The notes beneath the pieces are model-generated. The model was not told where the DNA came from and ran no database searches. It saw only the letters and a list, made by a program, of their open reading frames with translations. Below are positions 10,192 through 58,557 of a stretch of DNA of 64,000 nucleotides, piece by piece (the stretch's first letter is position 1; every line of letters starts with the position of its first letter). Position numbers and translations under genes: made by a program. Where the stretch lies: positions 128,001 through 192,000 of IMG/VR virus record IMGVR_UViG_3300037424_000485. One strand, 5' to 3'. The DNA comes from a virus. Taxonomy: Duplodnaviria; Caudoviricetes.

Positions 10192-10614
10192 TTATAGTTT
10201 AGATCCGCAAATCTTACAAAAACCTTTTCCATTATCCGCAATCGGTCTTTTGCACTTGACACAGTTAGTCTTAATCACTCGTTCTGGTGTCTTTTTTACC
10301 TTCTCAACAACTACAGGCTCGACTACAGGCTCAACTACAGGCTCGACTACAGGCTCAACTACAGGCTCGACTACAGGCTCAACTACAGGCTCGACTACAG
10401 GCTCGACTACAGGCTCAACTACAGGCTCAACTACAGGCTCAACTACAGGCTCGATATATTTCTTCTTAGAAGATTTCTTTTTCTTCTTAGAAGATTTATC
10501 AACATCCATTTCTTCTACTCTACCAACAACAATATCCATTTCTTCAATATCAACTGTTGTGTTATTCTCAAGGCCGAGATTATTCTCATCCTCTTCTTTT
10601 TTATACCATGTCAT
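10192..10614 (-). CDS. acidic/basic protein with (EPVV)12 and C-terminal CxxC-CxxC
   Basis: ORF with AGGAGG RBS and TATAAATA upstream. Confidence 0.75.
   Translation of the reverse strand: MTWYKKEEDENNLGLENNTTVDIEEMDIVVGRVEEMDVDKSSKKKKKSSKKKYIEPVVEPVVEPVVEPVVEPVVEPVVEPVVEPVVEPVVEPVVEPVVEPVVVEKVKKTPERVIKTNCVKCKRPIADNGKGFCKICGSKL
10309..10452. repeat. 12-bp tandem repeat x12 (RACTACAGGCTC)
   Basis: Counted directly; encodes EPVV. Confidence 0.95.
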
Positions 10615-23694: not shown

Positions 23695-23943
23695 TTAAAC
23701 AAATGTTTCCTTTATCCAATCCTTAATAGAAGAAATAGTTTTACAATTATCAAGAGACTCTAATTGAGAAGAAGACAATTTAAAATTAACATTCTTTATT
23801 ATCATATTACCCAATGAAGTTAAAGGATGATTACCTTTCTTTAACCACTTTATATAAAGACTCCAACCAACAGAACCCTTTTTAACCATCTTATTAGTCT
23901 CTATATTAAAAACAGTATTACTTTTATTTGTTATTTGATACAT
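23695..23943 (-). CDS. tail-fibre-associated small protein
   Basis: ORF after the adhesin; WSLYIKWLKKGNHP resembles XkdW/tail-fibre-assembly motifs. Confidence 0.55.
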   Translation of the reverse strand: MYQITNKSNTVFNIETNKMVKKGSVGWSLYIKWLKKGNHPLTSLGNMIIKNVNFKLSSSQLESLDNCKTISSIKDWIKETFV

Positions 23944-23955
23944 TTAATATCTCCT

Positions 23956-25311
23956 TTATACCTTATAAATGTAAGCTTTACCACTTGATAAACCACCTGC
24001 ATCGTCTTCCAGATAAGCACCAACAATTGCATAGTTGTCTGATATAGCTATAGAGTATCCAAAGCTATCACCATCACTAGTGTTATAAGCATTAGGGTTG
24101 TCTAATGTACTAAGCAAAGCACCTGTAGCTGGATTGTAAATATAAGCTTTACCACTTGTCAAGCCACCTGCATCATCTTCATAAGGAGCACCAACAATAG
24201 CATAGCTGTCTGATATAGAAACATAATATCCAAAATAATCGCCTGTTGTTGAGCTATAAGCATTAGGATTGTCTAGTGTATGAAGCAAAGCACCTGTAAC
24301 GCTGTTGTAAATATAAGCTATACCACTACCTAACCCACTAATATCATCTTCTTGATAAGCACCAACAATAGCATAAATATCTGAAATAGAAACAGAGTAT
24401 CCAAAGCTATCACCAGCACTAGTGTCATATGCATTAGGGTTGTCTAATGTCCATAGCAAAGTACCTGTAGCATTATCGAAAATATAAGCTTTACCGCTAC
24501 TTAAACCACCAGCATCATCTTCCAAATAAGCACCAATAATAGCATAGCTATTTGATATAGAAACAGAGTATCCAAAATAATCACCATCAGTAGTGCCATA
24601 TGCATTAGGGTTGTCAAGTGTCCATAATAGAGCACCTGTAGAAGAATTGTAAATATAAGCTTTACCACTACCTGTGCCACCTGCATCATCTTCATAAGGA
24701 GCACCAACAATAGCATAGCTATCTGATATAGCTATAGAGTATCCAAAACCATCAACAGCACTAGTGTCATAAGCATTAGGGTTATCTAGTGTCCATAATA
24801 GAACACCAGTAGCATTATCATAAATATAAGCTTTACCACTGTCCAATCCACCTGCATCATCTTCCAGCATAGCACCTACAATTGCATAGCTTTCTGAAAT
24901 AGAAACAGCTCTACCAAAGTTATCATTAAGGCTAGTGTCATAAGCATTAGGGTTATCTAGTGTCCATAATAGAACACCAGTAGCATTATCGAAAATATAA
25001 GCTTTACCACTACCTGTTCCGCCTATATCATCTTCAGCATAAGCACCTACAATTGCATAGCTATTTGATATAGATACAGCTCTACCAAAATAGTCATTAA
25101 GGCTAGTGTCATAAGCATTAGGGTTGTCTAGTGTGCGAAGAAAACTTATAAGTGCCTTACCATAGCCATCAGAAAGACTAATAGCACCTGTATAAACACC
25201 AAACAAATGTCTCAAATTAGCCTGTCCAAGGCTAATTAGTGTTGTTGATATTTCACTAAGCTCAGTATTTACTTGTGATAATGATATGCTTCCGCTTGCT
25301 GGTAATGTCAT
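23956..25311 (-). CDS. adhesin-like protein: short fibre-tip N-domain plus 7 FG-GAP-type beta-propeller blades
   Basis: MTLPASGSISLSQVNTEL...GAISLSDGYGK N-terminus; 7x TLDNPNAY..D.FG.SV.IS..YAIVGA.ED..G..SGKAYI. Confidence 0.8.
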   Translation of the reverse strand: MTLPASGSISLSQVNTELSEISTTLISLGQANLRHLFGVYTGAISLSDGYGKALISFLRTLDNPNAYDTSLNDYFGRAVSISNSYAIVGAYAEDDIGGTGSGKAYIFDNATGVLLWTLDNPNAYDTSLNDNFGRAVSISESYAIVGAMLEDDAGGLDSGKAYIYDNATGVLLWTLDNPNAYDTSAVDGFGYSIAISDSYAIVGAPYEDDAGGTGSGKAYIYNSSTGALLWTLDNPNAYGTTDGDYFGYSVSISNSYAIIGAYLEDDAGGLSSGKAYIFDNATGTLLWTLDNPNAYDTSAGDSFGYSVSISDIYAIVGAYQEDDISGLGSGIAYIYNSVTGALLHTLDNPNAYSSTTGDYFGYYVSISDSYAIVGAPYEDDAGGLTSGKAYIYNPATGALLSTLDNPNAYNTSDGDSFGYSIAISDNYAIVGAYLEDDAGGLSSGKAYIYKV

Positions 25312-29670: not shown

Positions 29671-30014
29671 TTAGATCTCTGTAGAGTTCTTTCAAACTCT
29701 TTTTGTATAATTGCAAGATCATTATTAAACTCATCAATCTTACGAAAAATTCTTTCTCTCTTTTTAGTATTTATATCAAGATGATTTATATTTTCTTCTT
29801 CCTTGATATAAAATCCAAATTTATATTTTCCTTTTAATATATTTTTAAATTGTTTATTACATTTTTCAATGGTTTCAAGAATATCTATATGTTGATATTT
29901 TTTAATCACATCAACATATAGATCATCTTTTTCAACAATTCCTATATTTAAGGAGCGAAATGTTAGTTCATCTGGTGTTTTAGAAGATAGTGTTATATAT
30001 TTAAGAAATTTCAT
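29652..30014 (-). CDS. hypothetical protein
   Basis: ORF with ATGA overlap. Confidence 0.6.
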   Translation of the reverse strand: MKFLKYITLSSKTPDELTFRSLNIGIVEKDDLYVDVIKKYQHIDILETIEKCNKQFKNILKGKYKFGFYIKEEENINHLDINTKKRERIFRKIDEFNNDLAIIQKEFERTLQRSNLHNDT

Positions 30015-33000
30015 AATGTATCTATCTTATATATATATGTTTTACCACTGTATGTTCCGCCATCATCAGACTCGCTATAAGCACCTACGATTGCATGAGT
30101 ATTAGATATTCCTACAGAATATCCGAATCTATCACCAGCAGTAGTGTCATATGCATTAGGGTTGTCAAGTGTGTGAAGCAAAGCACCTGTAGCATTATCG
30201 AAAATATAAGCTTTACCACTATTTGTCCCATCAATACTATCTTCTCTATAAGCACCTACAATAGCATAGCTATCTGATATAGATACAGAATATCCAAACT
30301 GATCATCAGCACTAGTGCCATATGCATTAGGGTTGTCTAATGTCCATAGCAAAGCACCAGTAGCATTATCATAAATATATGCTTTACCACTACCTAATCC
30401 ACCAGCATCACCCTCTTGATAAGCACCTACAATAGAATAAGTATCTGATATAGAAACAGATATACCAAAATAATCAACAGCACTAGTGTCATAAGCATTA
30501 GGGTTGTCTAGTGTCCATAATAGAGCACCAGTAGCATTATCATAAATATAAGCTTTACCACTGTCCAATCCACCTGCATCATCTTCAGCATAAGCACCTA
30601 CAATAGAATAAGTATCTGATATAGAAACATTATTTCCAAACTGATCACCAGCACTAGTGTCATAAGCATTAGGGTTGTCTAGTGTATGAAGCAAAGTGCC
30701 TGTGATAGTATTATAAATATAAGCTTTACCACTATTTACACCTCCTATATCGTTTACTTCATAGGCACCTATAATGGTATAAGTATCATTAATTGATATA
30801 GAAGATGCAAATCCACCAGATAATGATGGATTTGTTAATGTATGTAATAAGGAACCTGTAGATGTAGTATATATATATACAACACCATTTCCAATAATAC
30901 CCCCTTCATAAGGTGTTGCAACAGCTGTATAAGTATCTGATATAGCTACAGAATATCCAAAGCTATCACCAGCACTAGTGTCATAAGCATTAGGGTTGTC
31001 TAATGTATGAAGTAAAACACCTGTTGCATTATCAAATATATAAGCTTTACCACTATCTATACCACCACCAACACCATCCTCCTCAGGAGCACCAATAATA
31101 GCATAAGTATCTGATATAGCTATAGAGTATCCAAATTTATCCCAATCTGATGTTCCATATGCATTAGGGTTGTCTAATGTTAATATAGATACCTCAGGAA
31201 CTGCTTCTATATATTCATTTGTTATCAACCATGTATCACTATAAATACAACCCTCTACAGTTACAGTAACATCATTTCTAGCAGCACCAGTAGCACTTAC
31301 TATATGAGAGAAGCCTTGACTGTAATATCCCATATCTCCGACAAATACATATGCAGGATCGGATAATGTCCATGTTAGATCACCAGAAGCTGCATCTGTT
31401 TTTACATATACAATAGCTGTTTCATAAGGATTAATAGTAAAATTAGATATAGATGTATTTATATCAATATAGGATATTCCCTCATACACTGTAGTTAATG
31501 TATTTTCTATATATACACCTGTTCCAGAGCTAACAGATATAGTCACATCTTCCCCATCAGACCCGGAACAAGATATACCTAGAGTCACAACATATAAATC
31601 TGGATTTAAAGGATCTATATAATATGAATCTGTTAAAGGGTGATATCCTGTATGAGTTTTAGTTCCAGTATCAGACCATACAACCCCCGGTAGTGTTGAT
31701 GTAATATCCCATGTCAAAACAGAAGGATGTGCATTTGTGCTTATACTTATTAATGACTCAGACCCACATTGATTTATAGGAATTGTTGTTGATGTAGCAC
31801 CATCTCCATCAACAACATCATTCCATGCTATAGTTTCACCCATAGCTGTTTTAATAACCCTGTAATGCATTAAAAAATCTACATATGGTGGTTTGTATAA
31901 ATCAGAAATGGTAGTTCTAAATTGTACTTTATCTCTACTAATGATCTCTATTGTAGCAATATCCTCATACTCAGAAGCATAATCAAGACCCCAATTCATA
32001 TAGTAATGTCTATTATCTCTTTTAAATTCTGAGATAACACCAGTTTCTAACACGTTTTGATCTCCATCAAGTAGCTTATATGTTGGGGAGTTTTGAATAC
32101 CAAAACTATCAAATCCAATAAGCTCTTGAAGGATATTATAACTTCCACCATCTATTAATATAGCAGTACCGGACTGAGGAGTGCTAAATGTTAGCTTTGT
32201 AGACATGATGTTAAGCAATTTTATATCATCTGGTACTATGCTTACTCCATCTGTATCATATGATTGAATAAATATAAGCTTGCTTTCAAAATCATGATTT
32301 ACAATACAGCTATTATCCACACCAGATGTTTCAAATGTCTGTAATGTTAATGTTTCATTTGATGATAAATGTACATTTATGGTATTAATACTTATATTTC
32401 CTATACCTATATCAATTTCTATATTGTTGTCATCTATAATTGTTACAGAATCAATATCTATAAGACTCTGTTCTCCATTAATAGTATTATATTCATATAC
32501 CTGTACAAAAAGATCATCCCTGTTTAAAGAATGCTCTATTGATAGTATTTGATTACCACCAACATTTGTTGTTATAGGTGTTTTATTTGCTTTTTTAATA
32601 ACAATATATCCTGACTTTAATCCACTAAATGTTACTAATACATTTTCGCCATTATTTGTTATTACTGTAGATATAGGTGTTATTAGATTATTTACTTTAT
32701 CAAAGCATTGAATTATTAAATTCTGTGTATTTAGATCGGTATGAAATACCCACTCTGAAGCAGATACACACTGAAGTCCTATATATGTCGTTGCAGTATA
32801 ATAATCTTGTGTAAATGATCTAGAATTTACATATGTATTTGTATAACTCTCTCCTAAACTATTCTTATCACCATATAGAGACATAACATCCCCTGTTAAA
32901 TCAACTATTGGTGAAAACACAACACTATATCTGCAAGTTCTATAAACAGGTCTTACAGTCTCAAATGCATCGTATAGACCATCAAATGTAGCCTTTGAGA

Positions 33001-34510: not shown

Positions 34511-36316
34511 TTATCCTTCGTTGATAACTACACAATGATTTATTGATAGTCTTGGAAATTGATCATATCGTAAAACAATTCTTCTTATACTATTATCATA
34601 TAGATATCCACTACCTCCATCATCAATATAAGATTTTTCATAATGAGGAAATTGTTGTGTTGATGGAATACTTAGGTCATATATAGTTTCTGAATTTCCT
34701 GAAACAGGTGTAGTGTATATATTTAAATCTCTAAATAATAGATTTCTTATTCCTCTTGTATTAGTGAAATCATCTGTTGAAGATGTATTTGCAGGGTCTA
34801 TAAGAAATTCAGTTATATCAAAGAAGTCTATAGTTTCCCCAAACTTTCTAAACTCAAGACTAAAATAATATTCTAATTTATTTAATAGATCAGTCCTAAC
34901 ATTTGTAAAATTATAGTTTCTCTTTATTTTAATTCCTATTTCAAACATAAAATATACAAAATTTGGAATAATAAGAGTTTCTAAAACATTTATAGCCTTT
35001 CTTTGTTCTAAGTATCTGATAATACCTGTATTATAATCTGAATCATAAGATACTGGAACTTGTATATCAGCTGTAATAGGTGATGTTACTGTAGACAATC
35101 CCCACGCATGTGCTGATGTCTCTAAAGTCCCTAATTGAAATGATATACCATCTCCACTTAAAGGGGGTATAGTAGAGAAATATACTTTATTAAATAGAAT
35201 TGGCTGACCTGCATTTATATCTTGTTCTCCCCATGCATAAGCAACAACAACATCTGTTCTCTCCTCAAGGTTTACCTTATAGTCATTTTTAGTTATGTTC
35301 CTAAGTTGAGATTGAATAATAGCTTTTGAATTATTTCTTAAATCATCAAGTGTTTCTGGATTAGATGCCTGACTAGCAACATTGGTATTTGTTACTGTGT
35401 GTATATTTACTACATCAACAACAGAATTTAATGTTAGATTTGAAATATTTATTCCTTCTAAACTGGTTATAACTCCTTTATCTATTATACCATTAACACC
35501 ATTAGATTTAAGAACCTTAACTCTTATAATTGACTGTAATGATGGAACGTTCCTTGAGGTTGAAAAATCAATAACATACTGTTTATATTTATCATAATTA
35601 AATTGAAAAACATTATTACCCTCTGTAGTGGTAACACCAGAAAGACCCTCATAAAAATCAGACACGCGCTGCCATCCTGTATATTCAGTATCACCAGTTA
35701 GTGAGTTTTTAATAGAAACTTGGATACTTTCCATTGTGAAAGGATATATACCATAATCATATTTAAATAGAGGTAATAATATTTGATTATCTACTAACTC
35801 ATCACCATAATATTCTAAATCAACAATAGCTCCTTCTCTAAGCTCTATTTCAAAAGAAGCATTGCCATTTATATCTACAGTGGTTAAAGCCTCAGATTCT
35901 GTATTTGGAACATAAGAATATATGATAGGCTGACCATCATCTGTTTCCAGACCAGTATCAATATATTGCCATGGCTCTATATATAGTTGATTACCTACTG
36001 GTAGTCCACTTACAGATATTGATAATGTTGTTTGTCCTGATACATATCCTTTTGGCTGATATCCCTTTGTTTTTACAATCCTATGCAATACTTCAAAAAT
36101 ATCTGTTGTATCTTCATAACTATTTTTAGCTAGTAGGTTTGTATAATAAGTGCTAAGATCACCAACATATGAGAATAGTTCAATAAGCATTGCTATATTA
36201 GAGCCTTCAAAGTTATAATCTTTAAAAACCTCGCTCTTACCCATAAGATTTTTTAATCTTGTTTGCAGGGAATTGAAATCAGTTTCTAGATATGATGGTT
36301 GAAGTTCATTTGACAT
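34511..36316 (-). CDS. gp6: baseplate wedge protein gp6-like
   Basis: DFNSLQTRLK...FKDYNFEGSNIAMLIELFSY...ETLDDLRNN..Q.RNITKNDYK. Confidence 0.9.
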   Translation of the reverse strand: MSNELQPSYLETDFNSLQTRLKNLMGKSEVFKDYNFEGSNIAMLIELFSYVGDLSTYYTNLLAKNSYEDTTDIFEVLHRIVKTKGYQPKGYVSGQTTLSISVSGLPVGNQLYIEPWQYIDTGLETDDGQPIIYSYVPNTESEALTTVDINGNASFEIELREGAIVDLEYYGDELVDNQILLPLFKYDYGIYPFTMESIQVSIKNSLTGDTEYTGWQRVSDFYEGLSGVTTTEGNNVFQFNYDKYKQYVIDFSTSRNVPSLQSIIRVKVLKSNGVNGIIDKGVITSLEGINISNLTLNSVVDVVNIHTVTNTNVASQASNPETLDDLRNNSKAIIQSQLRNITKNDYKVNLEERTDVVVAYAWGEQDINAGQPILFNKVYFSTIPPLSGDGISFQLGTLETSAHAWGLSTVTSPITADIQVPVSYDSDYNTGIIRYLEQRKAINVLETLIIPNFVYFMFEIGIKIKRNYNFTNVRTDLLNKLEYYFSLEFRKFGETIDFFDITEFLIDPANTSSTDDFTNTRGIRNLLFRDLNIYTTPVSGNSETIYDLSIPSTQQFPHYEKSYIDDGGSGYLYDNSIRRIVLRYDQFPRLSINHCVVINEG

Positions 36317-36332
36317 TTATATGTTCCTTTAT
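36285..36332. repeat. 48-bp perfect direct repeat, copy 1 (copy 2 at 37210..37257)
   Basis: TCTAGATATGATGGTTGAAGTTCATTTGACATTTATATGTTCCTTTAT at both positions. Confidence 0.95.
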
Positions 36333-37241
36333 TTTTAACAAACAGTGTTTTTTATTTTCTATCCAGTCTTGTTCTTGAATTACCAATAAATCAATATTTT
36401 TTTCTTTGCATTGTTTTTTCTTAATTCTATCATGTGATATGGTTTTTTCTAGAGAATGCCAATACTCACCATTAAATTCTATAGCTTTATTTAAAGATGG
36501 TATCCATATATCTAATTCAAGATTAAAACCTGTTTTAGGATTTAATATTTGTGTTCTATCGTTAGAAATTATATCAACGAATCTGGATATAAATATTTGT
36601 ATTTCTTTCTCTGCCTTGGAAGATGTTTTTTCTCTACCACACCGAGGACATCTATTACCATTTAAGAAATTATCAAATCTAGCATCAAAAATATGACCTT
36701 TTCCACACTGTATTGTTATATTTTTCTTGTTATTTAAATATTCATTACTTAATAGCTTATATCCCTCTTTTTCTATTATTTCTTTAACATATTCTATATC
36801 ATTACTCATATTTTTACTTATTTCTTTTCTTTTACATATATTACATCTAGCATTACCTGATATAAAATTATTAAATCTTACACCATACGTATGGTTTTCT
36901 GGACACATAACTTCTAATTTAACAAATGCATTTAAATATTCATTACTTAATAGCTTATATCCCTCTTTTTCTATTATTTCTTTCACAGAAGTATAAGTAT
37001 GTTTTACACTTCCATTACATACATTACATCTCTGGCCCTGTTTAAATTTAGCCCATCTTGCTTTATAAATATGTCCTTTATTACATCTAATTATCAATTT
37101 AGAAGAAGAATTTAAATATTCATTACTTAATAGCTTATATCCCTCTTTTTCTATCTCTCTTTTAATAAATGAATACTCCAATTTTCTAGTAGAATGTTTT
37201 TTATTGTTCTCTAGATATGATGGTTGAAGTTCATTTGACAT
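36306..37241 (-). mobile_element. free-standing endonuclease gene (Zn-ribbon repeats plus Vsr/PD-(D/E)xK-like domain)
   Basis: 3-4x EKEGYKLLSNEY...C..GH...G.RC..C; ELDIWIPSLNKAIEFNGEYWH; flanked by the 48-bp repeat. Confidence 0.8.
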
Positions 37242-37253
37242 TTATATGTTCCT

Positions 37254-37622
37254 TTATCTTGTTCTAAAAATATAATCTATTTTTTCTACATTATCTGAAT
37301 TTATAAGACTATAATATAGTGTTGTTTTGTATTGATTGTTGTCTTCATCCATCTCAACATTAAAACTCTCGATATAAATTCTATCATCCCATTTTCTTAT
37401 AGCTGATACCAACCCTTCTCCAAGTCTTCTGGATGTTTCTTCGTCCATAGGCTCAAAGAGAATACCATTGATAAATATAAATGCGTCTGGGAGCATTCTT
37501 CTTGATCCCTTAATTGTTGAAAATATATTAATAAGCGAATTTTTAATAGCTTCTAAATCAGTCATTGCTTTTATATCGCCATCTTGCTGTTTGGTTAAAA
37601 AAATATCAATATCTTTCCACAT
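37254..37622 (-). CDS. gp25: baseplate wedge subunit gp25-like
   Basis: DLEAIKNSLINIFST..GSRRMLP...LFEPMD...AIRKWDDRI; TATAAATA upstream. Confidence 0.9.
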   Translation of the reverse strand: MWKDIDIFLTKQQDGDIKAMTDLEAIKNSLINIFSTIKGSRRMLPDAFIFINGILFEPMDEETSRRLGEGLVSAIRKWDDRIYIESFNVEMDEDNNQYKTTLYYSLINSDNVEKIDYIFRTR

Positions 37623-37656
37623 TATTATATCCTACTGTATTATTTATATCTTTATT

Positions 37657-38448
37657 TCAAAAAAAATTGTCTGGTATTAAACTACTTGATGTGCTTGCTA
37701 CTAGATTTTTGGCTTTCATACTAATTGCTGTTGTGTATGACTGTAGAGTATTTGCATTGGTATCTATATCAGTAGCAGCCACACCACCTATACCAGCCGC
37801 ATCTAAAACATTTGCCAAGTCTATACCACCAGTGTCTGTTAATACAAACTCTGCTGTAAAGTTGCTTATCTCTAAAAAATATCCATCTATTGTCCCTGCA
37901 TCAACCAACGTCCCGCATGAGCTATCACTTAAACATCCTAACATCTCATCAAGAGATGCAAGGGCTTTTTCTATTCCTAATGATGTAACTATTGATTGCA
38001 TATTTGCAAATCTATTAAGAATTGTTAATATAGGAGAAAAAGCTGTGTCGAATGTTTCTTGTGTCATAGTTCCAAAGGTATCTATTAAATCTGATATATC
38101 AGCAACACCCGCAGCTGCGCCCATTAGAGATCCTGTACCACTAGATGCATTTTTAGCAAGTGCTGTTAAAGGCCCCATAACAGCGTTTAAGCACGATCCA
38201 GTTAAACTAGTGATGGAGCTATCCAAAGAGTCCATATTGTTCAAGGAAGTGTCCAAACCAGCTATTAAATTATCATTAACTCTGTTTGTAAGATTCACGT
38301 CAATAACATGACCTGTATTGGTGATATCTTCCATTGAATCTTTCATAGGCCCCATAGCATATCTCATTGTATTGAGATTATTAAGACCTTTGACAATCTC
38401 TTTTTGTAATTCCAGACATGGGTTTAGTGCATCTACATTTAGACTCAT
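37657..38448 (-). CDS. hypothetical baseplate-region structural protein
   Basis: ORF between gp5 and gp25. Confidence 0.65.
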   Translation of the reverse strand: MSLNVDALNPCLELQKEIVKGLNNLNTMRYAMGPMKDSMEDITNTGHVIDVNLTNRVNDNLIAGLDTSLNNMDSLDSSITSLTGSCLNAVMGPLTALAKNASSGTGSLMGAAAGVADISDLIDTFGTMTQETFDTAFSPILTILNRFANMQSIVTSLGIEKALASLDEMLGCLSDSSCGTLVDAGTIDGYFLEISNFTAEFVLTDTGGIDLANVLDAAGIGGVAATDIDTNANTLQSYTTAISMKAKNLVASTSSSLIPDNFF

Positions 38449-42433: not shown

Positions 42434-44026
42434 TTACCATGTGTTATTTAATGAATCTACTTCAGTATCGTATGATCTTGTATTATCGCTATTATTTACC
42501 ACATGTGATGGAGCGATTACACTATTTTGAGTATTAATATTTGTAGTGTTAAAAAATCCTTGCATTTTATTACCTAATGTAGATGTTTGTTCTGCCATGG
42601 CTGTCTTCATACCGTTAGATGCCATAACACCCATAACTCTCACATTTTTTATTTCACCAGCCACTATAGTATCTGATAAGTTTGATATAGGAGATTTAGA
42701 CGGAACGGAAAAAGTAGCATTCTCCTCGTCCTTGAACCAGTTAGCTGGATTGTATTTATCTATTATCTTCTGTACATTCTCTTTAATATTTTTAAAGAAG
42801 TTGAAAATAGAAGAACCTATATCCATAATAACTCTAATAATTTTATCTATTAGCTTCGGTGCATTTTCTTTAATATTTTTAAAGAAGTTGAAAATAGAAG
42901 AACCCATATCCATAATAAATCTAATAATTTTACCTATAGTATTTCCTTCCCATTTTATAAACTCGATGTAAGTATTGCCAAGAAATTTCCATAGGTTCCA
43001 TATCATTAATCCTAGATCGCCTATAAATCTAATTGCTATGCCTATCCCCTTTCCTATAAAAGCAAATACAGGCTGTAGTTTTTCACCAGCTAATGCCAGA
43101 CCTCTAAGAGCAATCTCTATAGGCCAGAATAATATATCGATAATCTTATTACCTAGATCTGGTATTTCTTTAAATCCTGTCCATTTTAAGAATTTATTTA
43201 TTACCCATGCGAAAGGCTGTACAAATATATCTATAAGACCTTTAAATACATTTTTAAGACCAGCCACAATTTTATCTAATGTACTACCTTTTTCTCCACT
43301 ATATCCTGTAAAGAAATCATAGATACTCATAACGGCTTGTATAGGCCAGAAGAATTTTTTACCTAATTTAAACCCCAATCCTAACTTTCTAAGTAACGGG
43401 TTTTTAGATGTTTTTTCTAATACTTCAAAAAATTTACCTATTTTTCCAAAGAAATTGCCCTTACCAAGAAGCTTAATTTTAGTAATTTTTTCAAATGCCC
43501 ATGCAAATAATTTTATAGGAGCTAGTAGAATATTCGCTGCTAGTTGTAGCTTAGAAGCGAATATACCTATAGCTATTCCTAGAATAAGAAATATACCCCC
43601 TATAAGCTTCATAATACCACCCTTTCTACCTCTGCTCTCGCTATCACTTTTATCTTGTCTTAGAAATAATTTAGCAAACCCTTTTTTTATATGAGCACCA
43701 ATAGATATAAGAGGTGAAATAAATGTAGTATGGATTTTACCCATAATCTCCATATATGTACTTCTTATGTTACGAAATGCCTCGCTAAATCCATCTTTCA
43801 GCCATATAAAAAATTGTGTTCCTGCTGTTTTGAATATAGTAGGGAATAAATTAATCAAGCTTTTATTAACATTTGCAAAACCAGGAGCTTTTGCAAATTT
43901 AGATCCTGGTATATCTCTTGAAAGTGCGGTTCCTATGCTTTTTCTTTCAATGATATTTCGTAGACTATCAATGGATTTTGCAAATTTCTCTTGAATTGTG
44001 TGATGTTTTTTTAAATCTATTGCCAT
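42434..44026 (-). CDS. tape measure / gp29-like protein
   Basis: Helical, aromatic-spaced repeats, hydrophobic segment; follows the chaperone pair; start refined to MAIDLKK. Confidence 0.7.
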   Translation of the reverse strand: MAIDLKKHHTIQEKFAKSIDSLRNIIERKSIGTALSRDIPGSKFAKAPGFANVNKSLINLFPTIFKTAGTQFFIWLKDGFSEAFRNIRSTYMEIMGKIHTTFISPLISIGAHIKKGFAKLFLRQDKSDSESRGRKGGIMKLIGGIFLILGIAIGIFASKLQLAANILLAPIKLFAWAFEKITKIKLLGKGNFFGKIGKFFEVLEKTSKNPLLRKLGLGFKLGKKFFWPIQAVMSIYDFFTGYSGEKGSTLDKIVAGLKNVFKGLIDIFVQPFAWVINKFLKWTGFKEIPDLGNKIIDILFWPIEIALRGLALAGEKLQPVFAFIGKGIGIAIRFIGDLGLMIWNLWKFLGNTYIEFIKWEGNTIGKIIRFIMDMGSSIFNFFKNIKENAPKLIDKIIRVIMDIGSSIFNFFKNIKENVQKIIDKYNPANWFKDEENATFSVPSKSPISNLSDTIVAGEIKNVRVMGVMASNGMKTAMAEQTSTLGNKMQGFFNTTNINTQNSVIAPSHVVNNSDNTRSYDTEVDSLNNTW

Positions 44027-54032: not shown

Positions 54033-54740
54033 TTACCTTCCAAATATTTTTTCATCAATAGATGAGTAATCATCTATTGCATCACTTTCTTCTTCAATAT
54101 ACTCATTGTCTCCATATTCCAATAATTCATCATATATAGGTGTTCCATCTGCCGCACTGCTGGTAGCTGTAAGTGTTGCTGTTGGGTCTAATTTATGCAA
54201 TCTGTATGCCTCTAGTGACTCACTGCTATATCTGAAAGGTCTAAGTATTAATTCCCAAATCAGCTTCTTAGCTTGAAAGATTTGCTGTTCCGCCCCCACA
54301 TTCACTACCTCATACTTCCTGTTATTCCATTTAGTATGAATTACCATTCCTGGTATAGGGTGAAGATTACCAGCACTTAATGATGGTATTGATAAAAATG
54401 TATCTGTACAGTCCCTTGCAAACATAGTCTTAGGAATGACAGCATATTGTAGTGTCTCATCACTGGTAATACCAAAAGACTCAAGTATACTTGTTTCTTC
54501 TGTTGGTTCATATATTAGTTTTGTAGTGATAGCATTTGATAGATTTGTATTTGGATCTTCACCATATAATTTATCCCAGCTAACAATAGGAAAATATATA
54601 TCGATTTCAAATCCGACAACATCCGTAAATTCATTAATAAATGAGTCATATAGATAATGCTCTGGATTGTCTGATGAAATATCATAAAGCCTCCAAAGTG
54701 GTGTTCCTGCTAAAGCATTTTTAACTGTTTCTATTGACAT
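54033..54740 (-). CDS. gp14: neck protein gp14-like
   Basis: EFTDVVG..I.IYFP..D.LYGEDP...SFGITSDET...PGMVI...YEVVNV. Confidence 0.85.
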   Translation of the reverse strand: MSIETVKNALAGTPLWRLYDISSDNPEHYLYDSFINEFTDVVGFEIDIYFPIVSWDKLYGEDPNTNLSNAITTKLIYEPTEETSILESFGITSDETLQYAVIPKTMFARDCTDTFLSIPSLSAGNLHPIPGMVIHTKWNNRKYEVVNVGAEQQIFQAKKLIWELILRPFRYSSESLEAYRLHKLDPTATLTATSSAADGTPIYDELLEYGDNEYIEEESDAIDDYSSIDEKIFGR

Positions 54741-55611
54741 CTATAAAATCCTCAATCTTATCAAAACAGCAATATTTATTATTAATCCAATCACTTTCAT
54801 TAATAACCAATAAATCTATTCCTTTTTCTTGACATTGTTTTATTTTTATTATATCTTTTTCTTTTATCATATCTAGAGAATGCCAATACTCACCATTAAA
54901 TTCTATAGCTTTATTTAAAGATGGTATCCATATATCTAATTCAAGATTAAAACCTGTTTTAGGATTTAATATTTGTGTTCTATCGTTTGGTAAGAATGAT
55001 ATCCTATCTGATAAAAAACTCTGTATTTCTTTCTCTGCCTTAGAAGATGTTTTTTCTCTATCACAATTAGGGCATCTCTTACCTTGTTGAAAATTATACC
55101 ATCTCACCTTGTATTTATGATTATTATTACATTTTATATTTATTGGTGACTGTGCATTTACATATTCTTTGCTTAATAGGATATATCCTTCATTTTCTAT
55201 CTGTTCTTTTACATAATCATATGATAGTTTTTCTCTTCCACAACAAGAAATACATCTCTTACCTTGTTGAAAATTTCCATATGTTATAAGACTTTCATGT
55301 CCTTTGTTGCATTTAACACTTAAAATACTTGTAGTATTTACATATTCTTTGCTTAATAGGACATATCCTTCATTTTCTATCTGTTCTTTTACATAATCAT
55401 ATGATAGTCTTCGTGTGTTATGTGATTTTTCATTACCACAAATTCTACATCTATGTCCTTTTTTAAAAGACCAAAATGTAGGATGATATATATGTCCTTT
55501 ATTACATTTAACTTCTAATTTAGAATTAGATCCTATATAATTTTCTGATAGTAGTTCATATCCTTCATTTTCTATCTGTTCTTTTACAAATTCATATGTA
55601 TCCTTCTTCAT
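54721..55611 (-). mobile_element. free-standing endonuclease gene, paralogue of 36306..37241
   Basis: EQIENEGY.LLS repeats; ELDIWIPSLNKAIEFNGEYWH; start refined to MKKDTYEF. Confidence 0.8.
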
Positions 55612-55639: not shown

Positions 55640-56278
55640 TTACGTAGGCCAGCCAGTAGTAATATCATAATTGATAATATCTAAATGGTTTTGAAGAAGA
55701 TTTATGGCTTTACTATGATTATATTCATTTCTAAAGCATTGTTGTACATGAAACCCTACAACATTTGCTATAATTAATGCTGTTGTACTATCTATATCTA
55801 CCCATCCGTCATCACCTTTAAAATTAATTAACTCTGTTGGGTTAAGCTCGATAAACGACTTCAAACCATTGATCATGGCCTGACTACTTCTATCTGTTGA
55901 TATAGTAATACTCCCCCCGCCACTTAATGGCATGGAAAGACCGCTTATTTCTTTTTGATATCTAAATGTTGCTAGTTCTTTTAATTTATAATACCTTATA
56001 GATTCTGTATTAGCCGCTATTTCTTCTGGTGTTAATTCAGTAATAACCCATGAAATTGTCCATATGTCAGATATAAGATGTGGATATGAGCTTGATAAAC
56101 CTTGTGTTGTGGTATCATAGCTTGGAGCACCTGATGAGACTACAGTAAATACATCATAGCTGTTAAGTATTTCTTCTGTTATACTACGAGGAAACGAAAC
56201 ATTAGGGTTGTCTGCATGAAGATCTATAAGGGTATATGGATATTTTTGTATAATTCCGTTATTTGCTTTTAAGTACAT
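55640..56278 (-). CDS. tail-fibre-assembly-like protein (DUF4376-type C-terminus)
   Basis: KLKELATFRYQKEISG...ISTDRSSQ...NFKGDDGWV...VQQCF..E. Confidence 0.7.
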   Translation of the reverse strand: MYLKANNGIIQKYPYTLIDLHADNPNVSFPRSITEEILNSYDVFTVVSSGAPSYDTTTQGLSSSYPHLISDIWTISWVITELTPEEIAANTESIRYYKLKELATFRYQKEISGLSMPLSGGGSITISTDRSSQAMINGLKSFIELNPTELINFKGDDGWVDIDSTTALIIANVVGFHVQQCFRNEYNHSKAINLLQNHLDIINYDITTGWPT

Positions 56279-56292
56279 TTATTCTCTCTCTT

Positions 56293-58557
56293 TTATAAAT
56301 CATATATGTAAGCTTTACCACTGTTTAGATAGCCATCCTCATCCTCCAATGGCGCACCAATAATAACATGTGTATCTGATATAGATACAGTATATCCAAA
56401 CTGATCACCGGTACTTGTTCCGAATGCATTAGGATTGTCTAATGTATGAAGTAAAATACCTGTAGCATTATCATAAATATAAGCTTTACCGCTTGATAAA
56501 CCACCTGCATCGTCTTCTAAATAAGCACCTACAATTGCATAGCTATCTGATATAGCTACAGAATATCCAAACCAATCGTTGGCAGTAGTGCTATATGCAT
56601 TAGGGTTGTCAAGTGTCCACAATAGAGCACCTGTAGCATTATCATAAATATAAGCTTTACCGCTTGATAAACCACCTGCATCGTCTTCTAAATAAGCACC
56701 TACAATTGAATATGTATTAGATATAGCTACGGCCCTACCAAAGCTATCACCAGCACTAGTACCATAAGCATTAGGATTGTCAAGTGTATGAAGCAAAGCA
56801 CCTGTAACATTATCGAAAATATAAGCTTTACCGCTACTTAAACCACCTGCATCGTCTTCTTGATAGGCTCCAACTATTGAATAGTTGCCATGAGTAGAAA
56901 CCGAATATCCAAATCTATCAGCAGCACTAGTTCCATATGGATTTGGATTGTATAGTGTATGAAGTAAAGATCCATTTGTAGTATTGAATATATATGCTCG
57001 TCCACTATCAGCCTGAGTGTCATCTACACCATAAGCACCAACAATAGCATATGAATTTGAAATACTTACTGATCTTCCAAAAAAACCACCTGTACTATAT
57101 GCGTTTAGTGTATGAAGCAAAGCACCTGTAACGCTGTTGTAAATATAAGCTTTACCAGATTGAGTAGATTCATAATGAGCACCAATAATAGCATAAGTAT
57201 CTGATATAGCTACACAATATCCAAAATAATCTTCAGTGCTGGTTCCATAAGCATTAGGATTGTTTAATGTATGGAGTAAAGCACCTGTAGTATTATCATA
57301 AATATAAGCCTTACCGCTTTGTACTCCTCCAGCATCATCCTCTTGATAAGCACTTACAATTGAATAATTATCTGATATATCAACACTATAACCGAATCTA
57401 TCTTCAGTGCTAGTTCCATATGGATTTGGATTGTTTAATATGTTAGAGGGAGCTGATATTATTGTCGGGATTCTATAAATATAAGCTTTACCGCTACTTA
57501 AACCACCAGCATCGTCTTCTAAATAAGCACCTACAATTGCATAGTTGTCTGAGATAAATACAGATCTGCCAAAATAGTCATTAAGGCTAGTGTTATAAGC
57601 ATTAGGGTTATCTAATGTACTAAGCAAAGCACCAGTGGCTGGATTAAAAATATAAGCTTTACCGCTACTTAAACCACCAGCATCATCCTCACCATAAGCA
57701 CCTACAATTGCATAATTATCTGATATAGCTACAGAATATCCAAAGCTATCACCAGCACTAGTGTCATAAGCATTAGGGTTGTCTAGTGTATGAAGCAAAG
57801 TGCCTGTAGCATTATCGAAAATATAAGCTTTACCGCTACTTAAACCACCAGCATCATCCTCACCATAAGCACCTACAATTGCATAATTATCTGATATAGA
57901 TATATCTATCCCGAATTGATCACTAGCAGTAGTGCTATAAGCATTAGGGTTGTCTAATGTCCATAGCAAAGCACCTGTAGATGGATTGTAAATATAAGCT
58001 TTACCACTTGATAATCCACCGGCATCGTCTTCTTGATGTGATCCCACAATAGCATATGTATTAGAGATAGCTACATTCTGACCAAAGTTATCATTAAGGC
58101 TAGTGTCATAAGCATTAGGGTTGTCTAATGTCCATAGCAAAGCACCTGTAGAAGGATTATAGATATAAACCACACCACTGCCAACATCACCAGCAGGGCT
58201 TTTTTCATTATAAGCACCTACAATAGCATAGCTTTCTGATATCCCAACAGAATATCCAAAAACATCAACAGCAGTAGTGCCATATGCATTAGGGTTATCT
58301 AATGTACTAAGCAAAGCACCAGTGGCTGGATTAAAAATATAAGCTTTACCACTTGTCAAGCCACCTGCATCATCCTCACCATAAGCACCTACAATTGCAT
58401 AGCTATCTGATATAGCTATAGAGTATCCAAAGCTATCACCATCACTAGTGTTATAAGCATTAGGGTTGTCTAATGTTTGTGATAGTGTGATATTAATAGG
58501 GGTTTCCGGTAGTGTTTCAGGTATACTACCACACATCATTAAATCTCTATATCCCAT
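56293..58557 (-). CDS. virion protein with 13 FG-GAP-type blades (6+7, tandem propellers)
   Basis: 13 TL(D/N/Y)NP blade starts counted; linker IYRIPTIISAPSN after blade 6. Confidence 0.8.
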   Translation of the reverse strand: MGYRDLMMCGSIPETLPETPINITLSQTLDNPNAYNTSDGDSFGYSIAISDSYAIVGAYGEDDAGGLTSGKAYIFNPATGALLSTLDNPNAYGTTAVDVFGYSVGISESYAIVGAYNEKSPAGDVGSGVVYIYNPSTGALLWTLDNPNAYDTSLNDNFGQNVAISNTYAIVGSHQEDDAGGLSSGKAYIYNPSTGALLWTLDNPNAYSTTASDQFGIDISISDNYAIVGAYGEDDAGGLSSGKAYIFDNATGTLLHTLDNPNAYDTSAGDSFGYSVAISDNYAIVGAYGEDDAGGLSSGKAYIFNPATGALLSTLDNPNAYNTSLNDYFGRSVFISDNYAIVGAYLEDDAGGLSSGKAYIYRIPTIISAPSNILNNPNPYGTSTEDRFGYSVDISDNYSIVSAYQEDDAGGVQSGKAYIYDNTTGALLHTLNNPNAYGTSTEDYFGYCVAISDTYAIIGAHYESTQSGKAYIYNSVTGALLHTLNAYSTGGFFGRSVSISNSYAIVGAYGVDDTQADSGRAYIFNTTNGSLLHTLYNPNPYGTSAADRFGYSVSTHGNYSIVGAYQEDDAGGLSSGKAYIFDNVTGALLHTLDNPNAYGTSAGDSFGRAVAISNTYSIVGAYLEDDAGGLSSGKAYIYDNATGALLWTLDNPNAYSTTANDWFGYSVAISDSYAIVGAYLEDDAGGLSSGKAYIYDNATGILLHTLDNPNAFGTSTGDQFGYTVSISDTHVIIGAPLEDEDGYLNSGKAYIYDL

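What the first reader, a model, noticed from the sequence alone, without database searches (positions are those of the whole stretch)
36285..37257. Endonuclease gene flanked by a perfect 48-bp duplication of the gp6 RBS and first codons
Seen: the 48-bp repeat holds the end of gp25, the RBS, ATG and codons MSNELQPSYL. The left (upstream) copy starts the endonuclease, so both proteins begin MSNELQPSYLE; the other copy is read in a different frame as the endonuclease C-terminus (IKEHINVK*) and restarts gp6. Known: free-standing homing endonucleases usually insert without long target duplications. Inference: an insertion mode that hijacks and regenerates an essential gene's translation start, making the insert neutral and precisely excisable by recombination between the repeats.
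Basis: partly seen in the sequence, partly recalled or inferred. Interest (0 to 1): 0.7.

Follow-up and report, generated by a model that had tools for sequence, protein, structure and literature searches.

The report
Nuclease gene nested in duplicated gene start
A selfish DNA-cutting-enzyme gene sits between two baseplate genes of an uncultured T4-like phage and has no start or stop codon of its own. It borrows both from an exact 48-base duplication of the next gene's start region, and at least three related phage elements show the same layout.

Summary
An exact 48-bp direct repeat (36285-36332 and 37210-37257) brackets 877 bp of endonuclease-specific DNA between gp25 and gp6 of a 204-kb sediment phage.

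- **How it is read.** Its own DNA has no start or stop codon. The upstream repeat copy starts it. The downstream copy stops it in the +1 frame and restarts gp6.
- **Not an artefact.** Unitig depths in the likely source run fit two repeat copies to one endonuclease to one flank.
- **Relatives.** Most related phages have gp25 directly abutting gp6 (empty site). Three other elements of this family show the same start-region duplication: 29 nt and 21 nt at gp25/gp6, and 18 nt at phoH/terL. One gp6-site relative has none.
- **Family trait.** The family's 3' codons commonly carry the ribosome site and ATG of the next gene.
- **Best reading.** The repeat is a recombination scar of cassette entry or re-entry: one short-homology crossover plus one illegitimate junction.

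No same-strain empty site or circle could be found or tested. The scan has noted similar 5'-end duplications around endonuclease genes in other genomes. I class this as a new variant of a known kind.

The parts
37254..37622 (-). gp25-like baseplate wedge gene (122 aa). Its last base and TAA stop lie inside the upstream repeat copy.
   Evidence: Pfam GPW_gp25 1.5e-8 and phrog_261 1.3e-25. ORF.
37210..37257 (-). Upstream copy of the 48-bp repeat: gp25 stop, AAGGA ribosome site, ATG and 10.7 gp6 codons. It supplies the ribosome site, start codon and first 11 residues of the endonuclease.
36333..37209 (-). Endonuclease-specific DNA, 877 bp, with no start or stop codon of its own. Codons 12-18 (NNKKHST, 37188-37208) look like an in-frame read-through of a former leader. 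Three Zn-ribbon/CapR-like repeats follow (residues 19-204, 36630-37187), then most of the nuclease domain.
   Evidence: H16-S-T-R-K-L-E-Y aligns with M-S-T-K-K-L-T-F of the L075 endonuclease.
36306..37241 (-). Complete endonuclease ORF E1 (311 aa). The nuclease domain is residues 205-311 (36309-36629) and carries E242, D244, N257, H262 and D271.
   Evidence: phrog_559 1.5e-61; Pfam CapR, DUF4379, MTES_1575. Family profile against PDB 3r3p (I-Bth0305I) gives E 6e-6. The listed residues are invariant in alignment A1.
36285..36332 (-). Downstream copy of the 48-bp repeat. In the +1 frame it encodes the endonuclease C-terminus IKEHINVK and its TGA. In frame 0 it is the ribosome site, ATG and first 11 codons of gp6.
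34511..36316 (-). gp6-like baseplate wedge gene (601 aa).
   Evidence: Pfam Gp6-like_1st and phrog_219 8e-31. More than 100 homologs.
54721..55611 (-). Paralog E2 (296 aa, counted from MKKDTYEF). Its last codons (KIEDFIDVNRNS*) contain GAGGA-N8-ATGTCAA, the start of the downstream 235-aa gene, which gives only a weak neck-protein match. It has no flank duplication.
36448..36563 (-). 116-bp stretch of E1 that is identical to E2 (54872-54987). It indicates recent gene conversion between the paralogs.
   Evidence: The unitig for this stretch has doubled depth, 57.

Best explanation
[quoted passage not shown] It has three Zn-ribbon/CapR-like DNA-binding repeats and lies in the gp25/gp6 junction of the late baseplate operon of a T4-like phage. 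This junction is a recurrent insertion hot spot in this phage group.

The 48-bp repeat is a target duplication left by recombination linked to the cassette's entry or re-entry. On the gp25 side, the crossover was guided by the family's own ribosome-site-like 3' end (..AAA ATA AAG GAA .. ATA AAT G..), which resembles the gp25-gp6 spacer. On the other side there is a sharp illegitimate junction after gp6 codon 11.

The result is an endonuclease body without its own start or stop. It is translated from the upstream copy of the gp6 start region and terminated in the downstream copy, which also re-initiates gp6. The essential operon therefore keeps its translation signals.

Ordinary double-strand-break homing would then spread the whole unit. 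The repeats would also allow precise loss by the phage's own recombination.

- **Shown:** the anatomy, the family assignment, empty and occupied relatives, and recurrence of the duplication.
- **Inferred:** the recombination pathway, its timing (at entry or later), endonuclease activity, and excision.
For: **Anatomy.**

**Family assignment.**
- phrog_559 1.5e-61.
- 682 homologs, typically starting M[SK]KKLTYEFVK.
- Family profile hits the I-Bth0305I nuclease domain 3r3p at E 6e-6. The residues aligned to its N208, H213 and D222 (E1 N257, H262, D271) are invariant with identical spacing (PMC3239194).

**Mobile behaviour.**
- Three EDxHD paralogs plus HNH fusions carrying the same Zn-ribbon repeats occur in this genome.
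- E1 and E2 share 116 identical bp.

**Hot spot.** Most of 80 gp6 loci have gp25 abutting gp6. Other loci hold unrelated inserts at the same junction.

**Recurrence of the duplication.**
- L066: 29 nt of an empty-site relative (L104, about 82% identity) aligns to both flanks of an 852-nt insert.
- L075: 21 nt.
- L040/41/43: 18 nt between phoH and terL.
- In all of these the endonuclease start and stop both lie inside the duplicated DNA.
- Exact matches of 18 nt or more between the endonuclease start region and its 3' boundary occur in 7 of 79 genes, against 2 of 450 control gene starts.
- Alignment scores are 3-15 sd above shuffles.

**Ribosome-site-like 3' end of the family.** In 30 of 67 members the downstream gene's ATG lies inside the endonuclease's last codons, most often 8 nt before its end.

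**Asymmetric repeat borders.** Similarity stops abruptly on the gp6 side. On the gp25 side it decays gradually: 19 of 33 matches beyond the repeat, against a random mean of 9.5, p about 0.001.

**Precedents.**
- One-sided illegitimate double-strand-break repair at microhomology in T4 homing (reviewed in PMC2988022).
- SegB-driven microhomology rearrangements (PMC13096335).
- Endonuclease 3' ends that create the downstream start codon (PMC2677866).

**Not an artefact.** Depths are 26 / 22-29 / 48 for flank, endonuclease and repeat.
Against: - No same-strain empty site was found, so precise gain or loss at the repeat is not demonstrated for this phage.
- The closest empty-site relative is only 60% identical in gp6 (L017).
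- Perfect 48/48 identity cannot distinguish a recent event from ongoing conversion between the copies.
- L016, a gp6-site relative, has its own start and no detectable duplication. Only about 4 independent cases occur among about 75 family members, so a duplication is not obligatory.
- Residues 12-18 of E1 look like a translated former leader. This fits a later rearrangement as well as an entry scar.
- The tree cannot settle whether the gp6-site elements invaded independently.
- The cleavage site is unknown. A duplicated target would leave the occupied allele cleavable unless the site lies elsewhere or differs.
Confidence: 0.55

Rival explanations
1. Dedicated cassette mobility, which is the first reader's 'insertion mode' in its strong form. 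The start- and stop-less endonuclease body plus one repeat copy circularises by recombination between the repeats. It then integrates by a single short-homology (Campbell-type) crossover at translation-initiation regions that resemble its 3' end. The repeats would then be functional attachment scars, and excision and re-integration would be a regular part of the element's life.
For: - A single crossover between a circle and its target yields exactly this picture: direct repeats of the shared segment flanking the insert.
- Duplications recur in four elements, at two different target genes.
- The family-wide 3' end resembles a ribosome site plus ATG.
- T4-type phages do form and package minicircles by recombination between roughly 50-bp regulatory repeats flanking ORFs (PeSL; PMC2839356).
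- E1/E2 conversion shows active short-tract recombination in this genome.
Against: - No circle or empty-site sequence was seen, though the available data cannot show them.
- Most family members have no duplication.
- In the source run the endonuclease depth equals the flank depth, so excised forms are not abundant.
- The repeats contain neither a promoter/terminator nor RNA structure of the PeSL kind.
Confidence: 0.2
2. A secondary, lineage-specific accident unrelated to endonuclease biology. An ancestral endonuclease with its own start, as in L016, sat at the junction. Replication slippage or unequal crossing-over later copied the gp6 start region in front of it, and the old start codon decayed. 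On this reading the other family cases are unrelated coincidences.
For: - E1 codons 12-18 read like a former leader. H16-S-T aligns with M-S-T of a relative's start.
- L016 shows that the site can be occupied without a duplication.
- The same genome holds a second perfect 54-bp duplication, beside an HNH gene in the split DNA polymerase. So such rearrangements happen here in general.
Against: - Four independent start-region duplications in one endonuclease family, against 2 of 450 controls, are hard to put down to coincidence.
- Both perfect non-tandem repeats of 45 bp or more in this genome flank endonuclease genes. That points to break-associated repair rather than random slippage.
Confidence: 0.2
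3. Assembly artefact: a false join or a collapsed or expanded repeat in the metagenome contig.
For: The contig comes from a metagenome. A 48-bp repeat exceeds the k of the public unitigs, which break at it. A previous scan case proved to be two alleles strung together (e1-144302).
Against: - Both repeat-to-unique junctions exist as unitigs.
- Depth is 2:1:1 for repeat, endonuclease and flank.
- The repeats are identical rather than allelic variants.
- A second run from another study holds the stretch.
- The reading frames are intact and match the family's architecture.
- Other contigs from other samples show the same layout.
Confidence: 0.03

Closest known systems
EDxHD (Vsr-like) homing endonucleases: I-Bth0305I (PDB 3R3P), phage Hef, and the Vsr-like endonucleases of 'fractured genes' (PMC3239194, PMC2677866)
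   Same: The C-terminal nuclease domain is related (family profile against 3r3p, E 6e-6). The residues aligned to N208, H213 and D222 are invariant at the same spacing, preceded by E-x-D. Both are phage-borne, sporadically distributed, and sit beside or inside conserved genes.
   Different: The DNA-binding part is made of 2-5 Zn-ribbon/CapR-like repeats instead of NUMOD/helix-turn-helix modules. E1 is free-standing, with no intron (Rfam found nothing) and no intein. Its activity has not been tested.
Endonuclease 3' ends that overlap and create the start of the downstream gene (Dassa et al. 2009, PMC2677866; also nrdA/mobE of phage Aeh1)
   Same: In 30 of 67 family members the downstream ATG lies in the endonuclease's last codons. 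E1 and E2 both end on a ribosome site followed, after 8-9 nt, by ATGTCAA.
   Different: Here the 5' end is also borrowed. The endonuclease's own ribosome site, start and first codons are a duplicate of the downstream gene's, so the element-specific DNA has neither start nor stop.
Illegitimate one-sided double-strand-break repair in T4 intron homing (Parker et al. 1999, as reviewed in PMC2988022) and SegB-driven microhomology rearrangement in T6 (PMC13096335)
   Same: One homologous or homeologous side plus one microhomology junction near an endonuclease gene. This has been proposed as the route by which these genes reach new sites.
   Different: Those are laboratory events. A natural product that preserves two translation starts by duplication was not described in the texts I read.
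PeSL cassettes and minicircles of T4-type phages (PMC2839356, PMC4122927)
   Same: An ORF flanked by roughly 50-bp direct repeats that are expression signals. Recombination between the repeats gives an empty site plus a circle.
   Different: PeSLs are early promoter plus terminator stem-loops found in hyperplastic regions. Here the repeat is a late-gene ribosome site plus coding start inside a core structural operon, and the cargo is an endonuclease. No promoter, terminator or fold was found.
Mobile endonuclease ORFs (mORFs) of fungal mitochondria with carboxy-terminal duplication (atp6, atp9, cox2, nad3; PMC3630166)
   Same: An endonuclease ORF fused in frame to a host gene and flanked by a duplicated end of that gene, so that the host gene stays whole.
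   Different: In those cases the 3' end is duplicated and the two copies differ (one foreign, one native). Here the 5' end and its ribosome site are duplicated and the copies are identical.

Membership tests
EDxHD / Vsr-like homing endonucleases | Vsr-like nuclease domain detectable by sequence | tested here: met
   Profile of 16 family members against PDB gives 3r3p_A (I-Bth0305I catalytic domain) at E 6e-6. E1 alone gives E 0.012. Pfam gives only a sub-threshold MTES_1575 restriction-endonuclease-like match.
EDxHD / Vsr-like homing endonucleases | Composite catalytic motif E-D-x-H-D | tested here: met
   E242, D244, N257, H262 and D271 are invariant in A1. In the phmmer alignment N257, H262 and D271 pair with N208, H213 (Ala in the crystal) and D222 at the same spacings of 5 and 9 (PMC3239194). 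The equivalence of D244 to D196 is inferred, with a one-residue offset.
EDxHD / Vsr-like homing endonucleases | Site-specific cleavage of the endonuclease-less allele near the insertion site | not testable with these tools
   Needs purified protein and single-repeat substrates.
Free-standing homing endonuclease gene (functional class) | Presence/absence polymorphism at a conserved junction between core genes | tested here: met
   Occupied in the window, L016, L066 and L075. Empty in L017, L104, L109 and most of 80 gp6 loci.
PeSL-type regulatory cassettes | Flanking repeats made of a sigma-70-type early promoter plus a terminator stem-loop | tested here: not met
   No terminator-like site. Promoter-like sites do not exceed shuffles. 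The repeat contexts do not fold better than shuffles (z 0.16 and 0.85).
PeSL-type regulatory cassettes | Minicircles formed by recombination between the flanking repeats | not testable with these tools
   Only k=31 unitigs are available. Circle and empty-site junctions contain no unique 31-mers.
Insertion sequences / transposons with target-site duplication | Fixed-length target duplication, terminal inverted repeats, transposase | tested here: not met
   Duplications of 18, 21, 29 and 48 nt. No inverted repeats at the insert ends. The only ORF is the endonuclease.
Fungal-type mORF with duplicated gene end | Endonuclease ORF in frame with the host gene and flanked by a duplicated gene terminus, with one copy foreign | tested here: inconclusive
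   In-frame fusion to gp6 codons 1-11 and a flanking duplication are present. However, it is the 5' end that is duplicated, and the copies are identical, so no foreign copy can be recognised.
Group I intron- or intein-borne endonuclease | Ribozyme or Hint domain around the ORF | tested here: not met
   No Rfam match at E up to 1 in 35800-37800. No Hint domain in E1. The ORF lies between genes.

The most novel reading that the evidence does not exclude
This endonuclease family may move as an ORF body without a start or stop codon, targeting translation-initiation regions. Its conserved C-terminal codons mimic a ribosome site plus ATG. On this reading, a single short-homology crossover, from a circle or a one-ended invasion, inserts it into the start region of an essential late gene. 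The start region is duplicated so that both genes are translated. The duplication then serves as a reversible attachment scar, giving a recombinase-free way in and out of core operons, alongside classical homing.
Probability: 0.2. Interest if true: 0.75.

Novelty: new variant of a known kind. Interest (0 to 1): 0.52.

Why it matters
How free-standing homing endonuclease genes reach new sites inside tightly packed, translationally coupled phage operons without harming them is still largely unexplained. This locus and its three look-alikes give a concrete natural answer. The gene is nested in a duplication of the next gene's ribosome site and first codons. The upstream copy expresses the nuclease and the downstream copy restores the essential gene.

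The finding links three things that have so far been described separately:
- endonuclease 3' ends that provide the downstream start codon;
- illegitimate one-sided break repair;
- repeat-flanked cassettes in T4-type phages.

It also gives testable predictions: empty-site and circle junctions in raw reads, cleavage near the repeat borders, and excision frequency between 48-bp repeats. For annotation, it warns that such endonucleases carry N-terminal residues of the neighbouring gene, and that gene starts next to them may be element-derived.

Tried and rejected
- **Phage records.** blastn of the locus against 50,697 phage records gave no match.
- **Exact empty-site patterns.** I searched for the gp25 end + repeat + gp6 continuation in JGI metagenome contigs and IMG/VR, and for the equivalent patterns of L043, L066 and L075 in IMG/VR. 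All gave 0 hits.
- **Close gp25 relatives in metagenome contigs.** None were confirmed.
- **Logan contigs of two runs.** No joints were reported and the unitigs break at the repeat. An empty site or a circle has no unique 31-mers, so this says nothing about them. The uneven low depth over the endonuclease in the second run is not interpretable.
- **Ribosome-site-masking RNA, promoter, terminator or Rfam family in or around the repeat.** None found.
- **Transposon reading.** Rejected: no terminal inverted repeats, variable duplication length, no transposase.
- **Truncation idea.** I first thought E1 was 5'-truncated inside a linker between Zn-ribbon repeats. I dropped this after aligning family N-termini. 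The extra residues fit a former leader plus start.
- **Tree of 81 nuclease domains.** Meant to test independent invasion of the gp6 site. It was too poorly resolved: one origin is not excluded.
- **L018.** This contig from another sample has 100% identical gp6 and starts 47 nt inside gp6. The break is not at the repeat border, so no inference was drawn.
Full report
**1. Observation**

The window is bases 128001-192000 of a 204,431-bp IMG/VR virus record with 32% G+C, judged 85% complete. All genes at the site are on the minus strand.

An exact 48-bp direct repeat lies at 36285-36332 and 37210-37257. A search allowing 3 mismatches finds only these two copies, and none of 100 shuffles gave two.

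On the coding strand the repeat reads A TAA AGGAACATATAA ATG TCA AAT GAA CTT CAA CCA TCA TAT CTA GA. That is the last base and stop of the gp25-like gene, an AAGGA ribosome site, the ATG, and gp6 codons 2-11.

The ORFs are:
- gp25-like, 37622..37254;
- a 311-aa endonuclease, 37241..36306;
- gp6-like, 36316..34511.

Both the endonuclease and gp6 start MSNELQPSYLE. The downstream copy read in the +1 frame ends the endonuclease with IKEHINVK*. Pfam and PHROGs confirm gp25, gp6 and gp5 neighbours and an endonuclease.

**2. Not an artefact**

Two sediment metagenome runs from different studies hold the stretch.

In the likely source run, depths are:
- gp6 flank: 26;
- five endonuclease-specific unitigs: 22-29;
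- the 48-bp repeat, as its own unitig: 48.1;
- a 116-bp unitig: 57.

The 116-bp unitig is a stretch identical between this gene and its paralog E2 (36448-36563 = 54872-54987). The ratios fit two repeat copies and one endonuclease per genome, with the occupied form close to fixed.

These are k=31 unitigs. An empty site or a circle would contain no new 31-mers, so their absence from the tables says nothing.

**3. What the gene is**

- **Architecture.** E1 has three repeats of about 60 residues (..EKEGYKLLSNEYLN..C..H..RCxxC; Pfam CapR and DUF4379 treble-clef) and a C-terminal nuclease.
- **Family size.** The family is large: 682 hits at E < 1e-3, with 2-5 repeats. The usual start is M[SK]KKLTYEFVK and the usual end is C..KIKEFI...
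- **Nuclease class.** A profile of 16 members hits the catalytic domain of I-Bth0305I (3r3p) at E 6e-6. E1 residues N257, H262 and D271 align with N208, H213 and D222 of that enzyme at identical spacing. Together with E242 and D244 they are invariant (PMC3239194). The nuclease therefore belongs to the EDxHD/Vsr-like homing endonuclease class, joined to a different DNA-binding region.
- **Paralogs.** The genome has two further paralogs (E2 in the window, E3 outside). It also has HNH endonucleases carrying the same Zn-ribbon repeats. Other large viral contigs carry six or more copies.
- **No intron or intein.** None was found.

**4. The site in relatives**

The closest gp6 homologs are only 60% identical.
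- L017 (60%) has gp25 TAA GGAACAATA ATG gp6. This is an empty site homologous to a single repeat copy.
- L016 (59%) holds an endonuclease of the same family at the same junction. It is split at an A8 run, has its own start right after gp25, and its stop overlaps the gp6 ATG. It has no detectable duplication.

Among 80 further gp6 loci, gp25 nearly always abuts gp6, with a spacer of 2-46 nt. Six or more loci carry unrelated inserts there: an HNH gene with a SprT-like gene, large unknown ORFs, and small ORFs. None of these has a start-region duplication. The junction is an insertion hot spot.

**5. Recurrence of the duplication**

I surveyed 79 distinct genes of the family from viral contigs. 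The longest exact match between the endonuclease's start region and its 3' boundary is 6-13 nt in most, the same as for 450 control gene starts. It is 18 nt or more in 7 of the 79, against 2 of 450 controls.

Setting aside a tandem pair of paralogs (L094), the cases are:
- **The window:** 48 nt.
- **L075:** 21 nt, ATAGGAGAAAAAAATGAGCAC. The endonuclease begins MSTKKLTF and the downstream gp6 begins MSTNTLIPDY.
- **L066:** 21 nt exact, about 29 nt with one indel. The endonuclease begins MSEIKPSRYDY and gp6 begins MSEINLVPGYLETDF.
- **L040/41/43:** 18 nt, GTAGGATTATAAATGCCA, between an intein-bearing phoH and the large terminase gene.

Alignment scores exceed shuffles by 3 to 15 sd.

For L066 there are empty-site genomes at about 82% nucleotide identity (L104, L109). 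Bases 3472-3500 of L104 align to both flanks of an 852-nt insert in L066. This is direct evidence of an insertion with a 29-nt duplication of the start region.

In all four cases the endonuclease's start codon lies in the upstream copy and its stop codon in the downstream copy. The element-specific DNA therefore has neither.

**6. The 3' end of the family is a translation start for the next gene**

In 30 of 67 members with a same-strand downstream gene, that gene's ATG lies within the endonuclease's last codons. The commonest arrangement is ..ATA AAG GAx TTT ATA AAT Gxx TAA, with the ATG 8 nt before the end. A further 14 start within 20 nt.

E1 (AAA ATA AAG GAA CAT ATA AAT GTC AAA TGA) and E2 (AAG ATT GAG GAT TTT ATA GAT GTC AAT AGA ..) both end on a ribosome site followed, after 8-9 nt, by ATGTCAA. 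An earlier first-reader note (e1-5409346) had suggested this, and I confirmed it.

The residues KIKEHINVK encoded by the repeat are therefore the family's normal C-terminus. This agrees with the overlaps and model of Dassa et al. 2009 (PMC2677866).

The gp25-gp6 spacer of empty sites (TAAGGAACAATAATG in L017, TAAGGAATTTTATAAATG in L104) resembles this 3' end. That gives a patch of short homology between cassette and target.

**7. Borders of the repeat**

- **gp6 side.** Similarity ends abruptly: 4 of 11 and then 1 of 11 matches.
- **gp25 side.** Similarity decays gradually: 19 of 33 matches beyond the repeat, against a random mean of 9.5 +/- 2.7, p about 0.001.
- **After the upstream copy.** The endonuclease continues ENNKKHST-RKLEYSF. 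RKLEYSF aligns with the family's KKLTYEF, and HSTRKLEY aligns with MSTKKLTF of L075. Codons 12-18 therefore look like a former leader and start codon now read through in frame.

No promoter, terminator or stable RNA fold distinguishes the two repeat contexts. The gene is presumably co-transcribed with the late baseplate operon and translated like gp6.

**8. Mechanism**

The simplest account has two parts: one crossover in the patchy homology between the cassette's 3' end and the gp25-end/spacer, and one illegitimate junction after gp6 codon 11. Because the junction lies 48 nt downstream of the crossover, those 48 nt are duplicated.

[quoted passage not shown] 1999, as summarised in PMC2988022). 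It is also what a single crossover with a circular cassette would produce. SegB in T6 was recently shown to drive microhomology-mediated rearrangements that fuse and truncate its own gene (PMC13096335).

Selection would keep only products that leave gp6 translatable, which explains why the duplicated segment is always the start region.

Whether the event was the original entry or a later re-entry or rearrangement is open. The perfect identity of the copies argues for a recent event or for conversion between them.

The same genome holds a second perfect repeat of 54 bp, which is part of a 138-bp duplication. It flanks an HNH endonuclease gene at the break of the split DNA polymerase gene. The only two non-tandem perfect repeats of 45 bp or more within 6 kb in this genome both flank endonuclease genes. 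This favours break-associated repair over random slippage.

**9. Comparison with what is known, and novelty**

Already known:
- the endonuclease class;
- 3' overlaps that supply the next gene's start codon;
- illegitimate homing;
- repeat-flanked cassettes with minicircles (PeSL, PMC2839356);
- fungal mitochondrial endonuclease ORFs with a duplicated 3' gene end (PMC3630166).

I did not find described, in the papers read, a phage homing endonuclease whose own ribosome site, start and first codons are a duplicate of the downstream essential gene's, so that the element has no start or stop of its own. Nor did I find it as a recurrent feature of one family.

Earlier notes of this scan report comparable 5'-end duplications around endonuclease genes in other genomes (e1-2468296, e1-2024847, e1-3099635, e1-2737465). 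I did not check those. I rate the finding a new variant of a known kind, of moderate interest.

**10. Limits**

There is no same-strain empty site, no raw reads, no activity data and no cleavage site. The survey covers 79 genes from one collection. Whether the gp6-site elements are independent is unresolved.

Noticed in passing
G000:C1:121550-123049 (about 5-6.5 kb before the window start): A second perfect direct repeat of 54 bp (121553-121606 and 122915-122968) is part of a 138-bp duplication of a DNA polymerase segment (..YGIMA..RYANKLLNNPNEELLNIINEI). It flanks an HNH endonuclease gene (122164-122895, + strand). The downstream copy is itself interrupted by a 106-aa ORF. The polymerase is split: the N-terminal part ends at 122896 and the C-terminal part lies near 117.0-118.0 kb, with about 12 ORFs in between.
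   Followed up: partly
window 36448-36563 and 54872-54987: A 116-bp stretch is exactly identical in the nuclease domains of paralogs E1 and E2, which are otherwise about 70% identical. This suggests recent gene conversion between dispersed endonuclease genes.
   Followed up: yes
L019-L097 (viral contigs): The conserved C-terminal peptide of this endonuclease family (KIKEFI..) is encoded by AAGGAxTTTATAAATG-like DNA. That DNA serves as ribosome site and ATG for the next gene in 30 of 67 members, with a modal overlap of 8 nt.
   Followed up: yes
L099/L100, L127, L140-L142/L146, L121, L124: In other phages the gp25/gp6 junction holds unrelated inserts: a SprT-like gene plus an HNH endonuclease, a 364-aa basic protein, a 512-534-aa repeat protein, and 64-69-aa ORFs. 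None has a start-region duplication. The junction is an insertion hot spot.
   Followed up: partly
L016:2911-4001: The endonuclease at the gp6 site of the 59% relative is split into 133-aa and 215-aa ORFs at an A8 run. This could be a frameshift, a sequencing error or a decaying gene.
   Followed up: no
L043:754-2994: The PhoH-like gene upstream of the phoH/terL endonuclease carries an intein: weak (below Pfam cut-off) Hint and LAGLIDADG matches sit between the PIN and PhoH domains.
   Followed up: no
window 23907-25238, 29971-31185, 56244-58580: Three long arrays of a 171-nt (57-aa) repeat, 60-85% identical, lie in large tail-fibre-like genes, including the 1498-aa ORF just downstream of gp6. 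The copies are similar between genes.
   Followed up: no
window 10272-10487; 42755-42928; 60082-60378: Other tandem repeats: a 12-nt unit in 13 or more copies, an 87-nt unit in 2 copies, and a 99-nt unit in 3 copies, two of them identical.
   Followed up: no
window 37258-37290 versus 36333-36365: Beyond the gp25-side border of the 48-bp repeat, the gp25 3' end and the endonuclease 3' end still match at 19 of 33 positions (p about 0.001). They are read in different frames, and the endonuclease residues follow the family consensus. Cause unclear: it may be a homeologous crossover zone or chance.
   Followed up: partly
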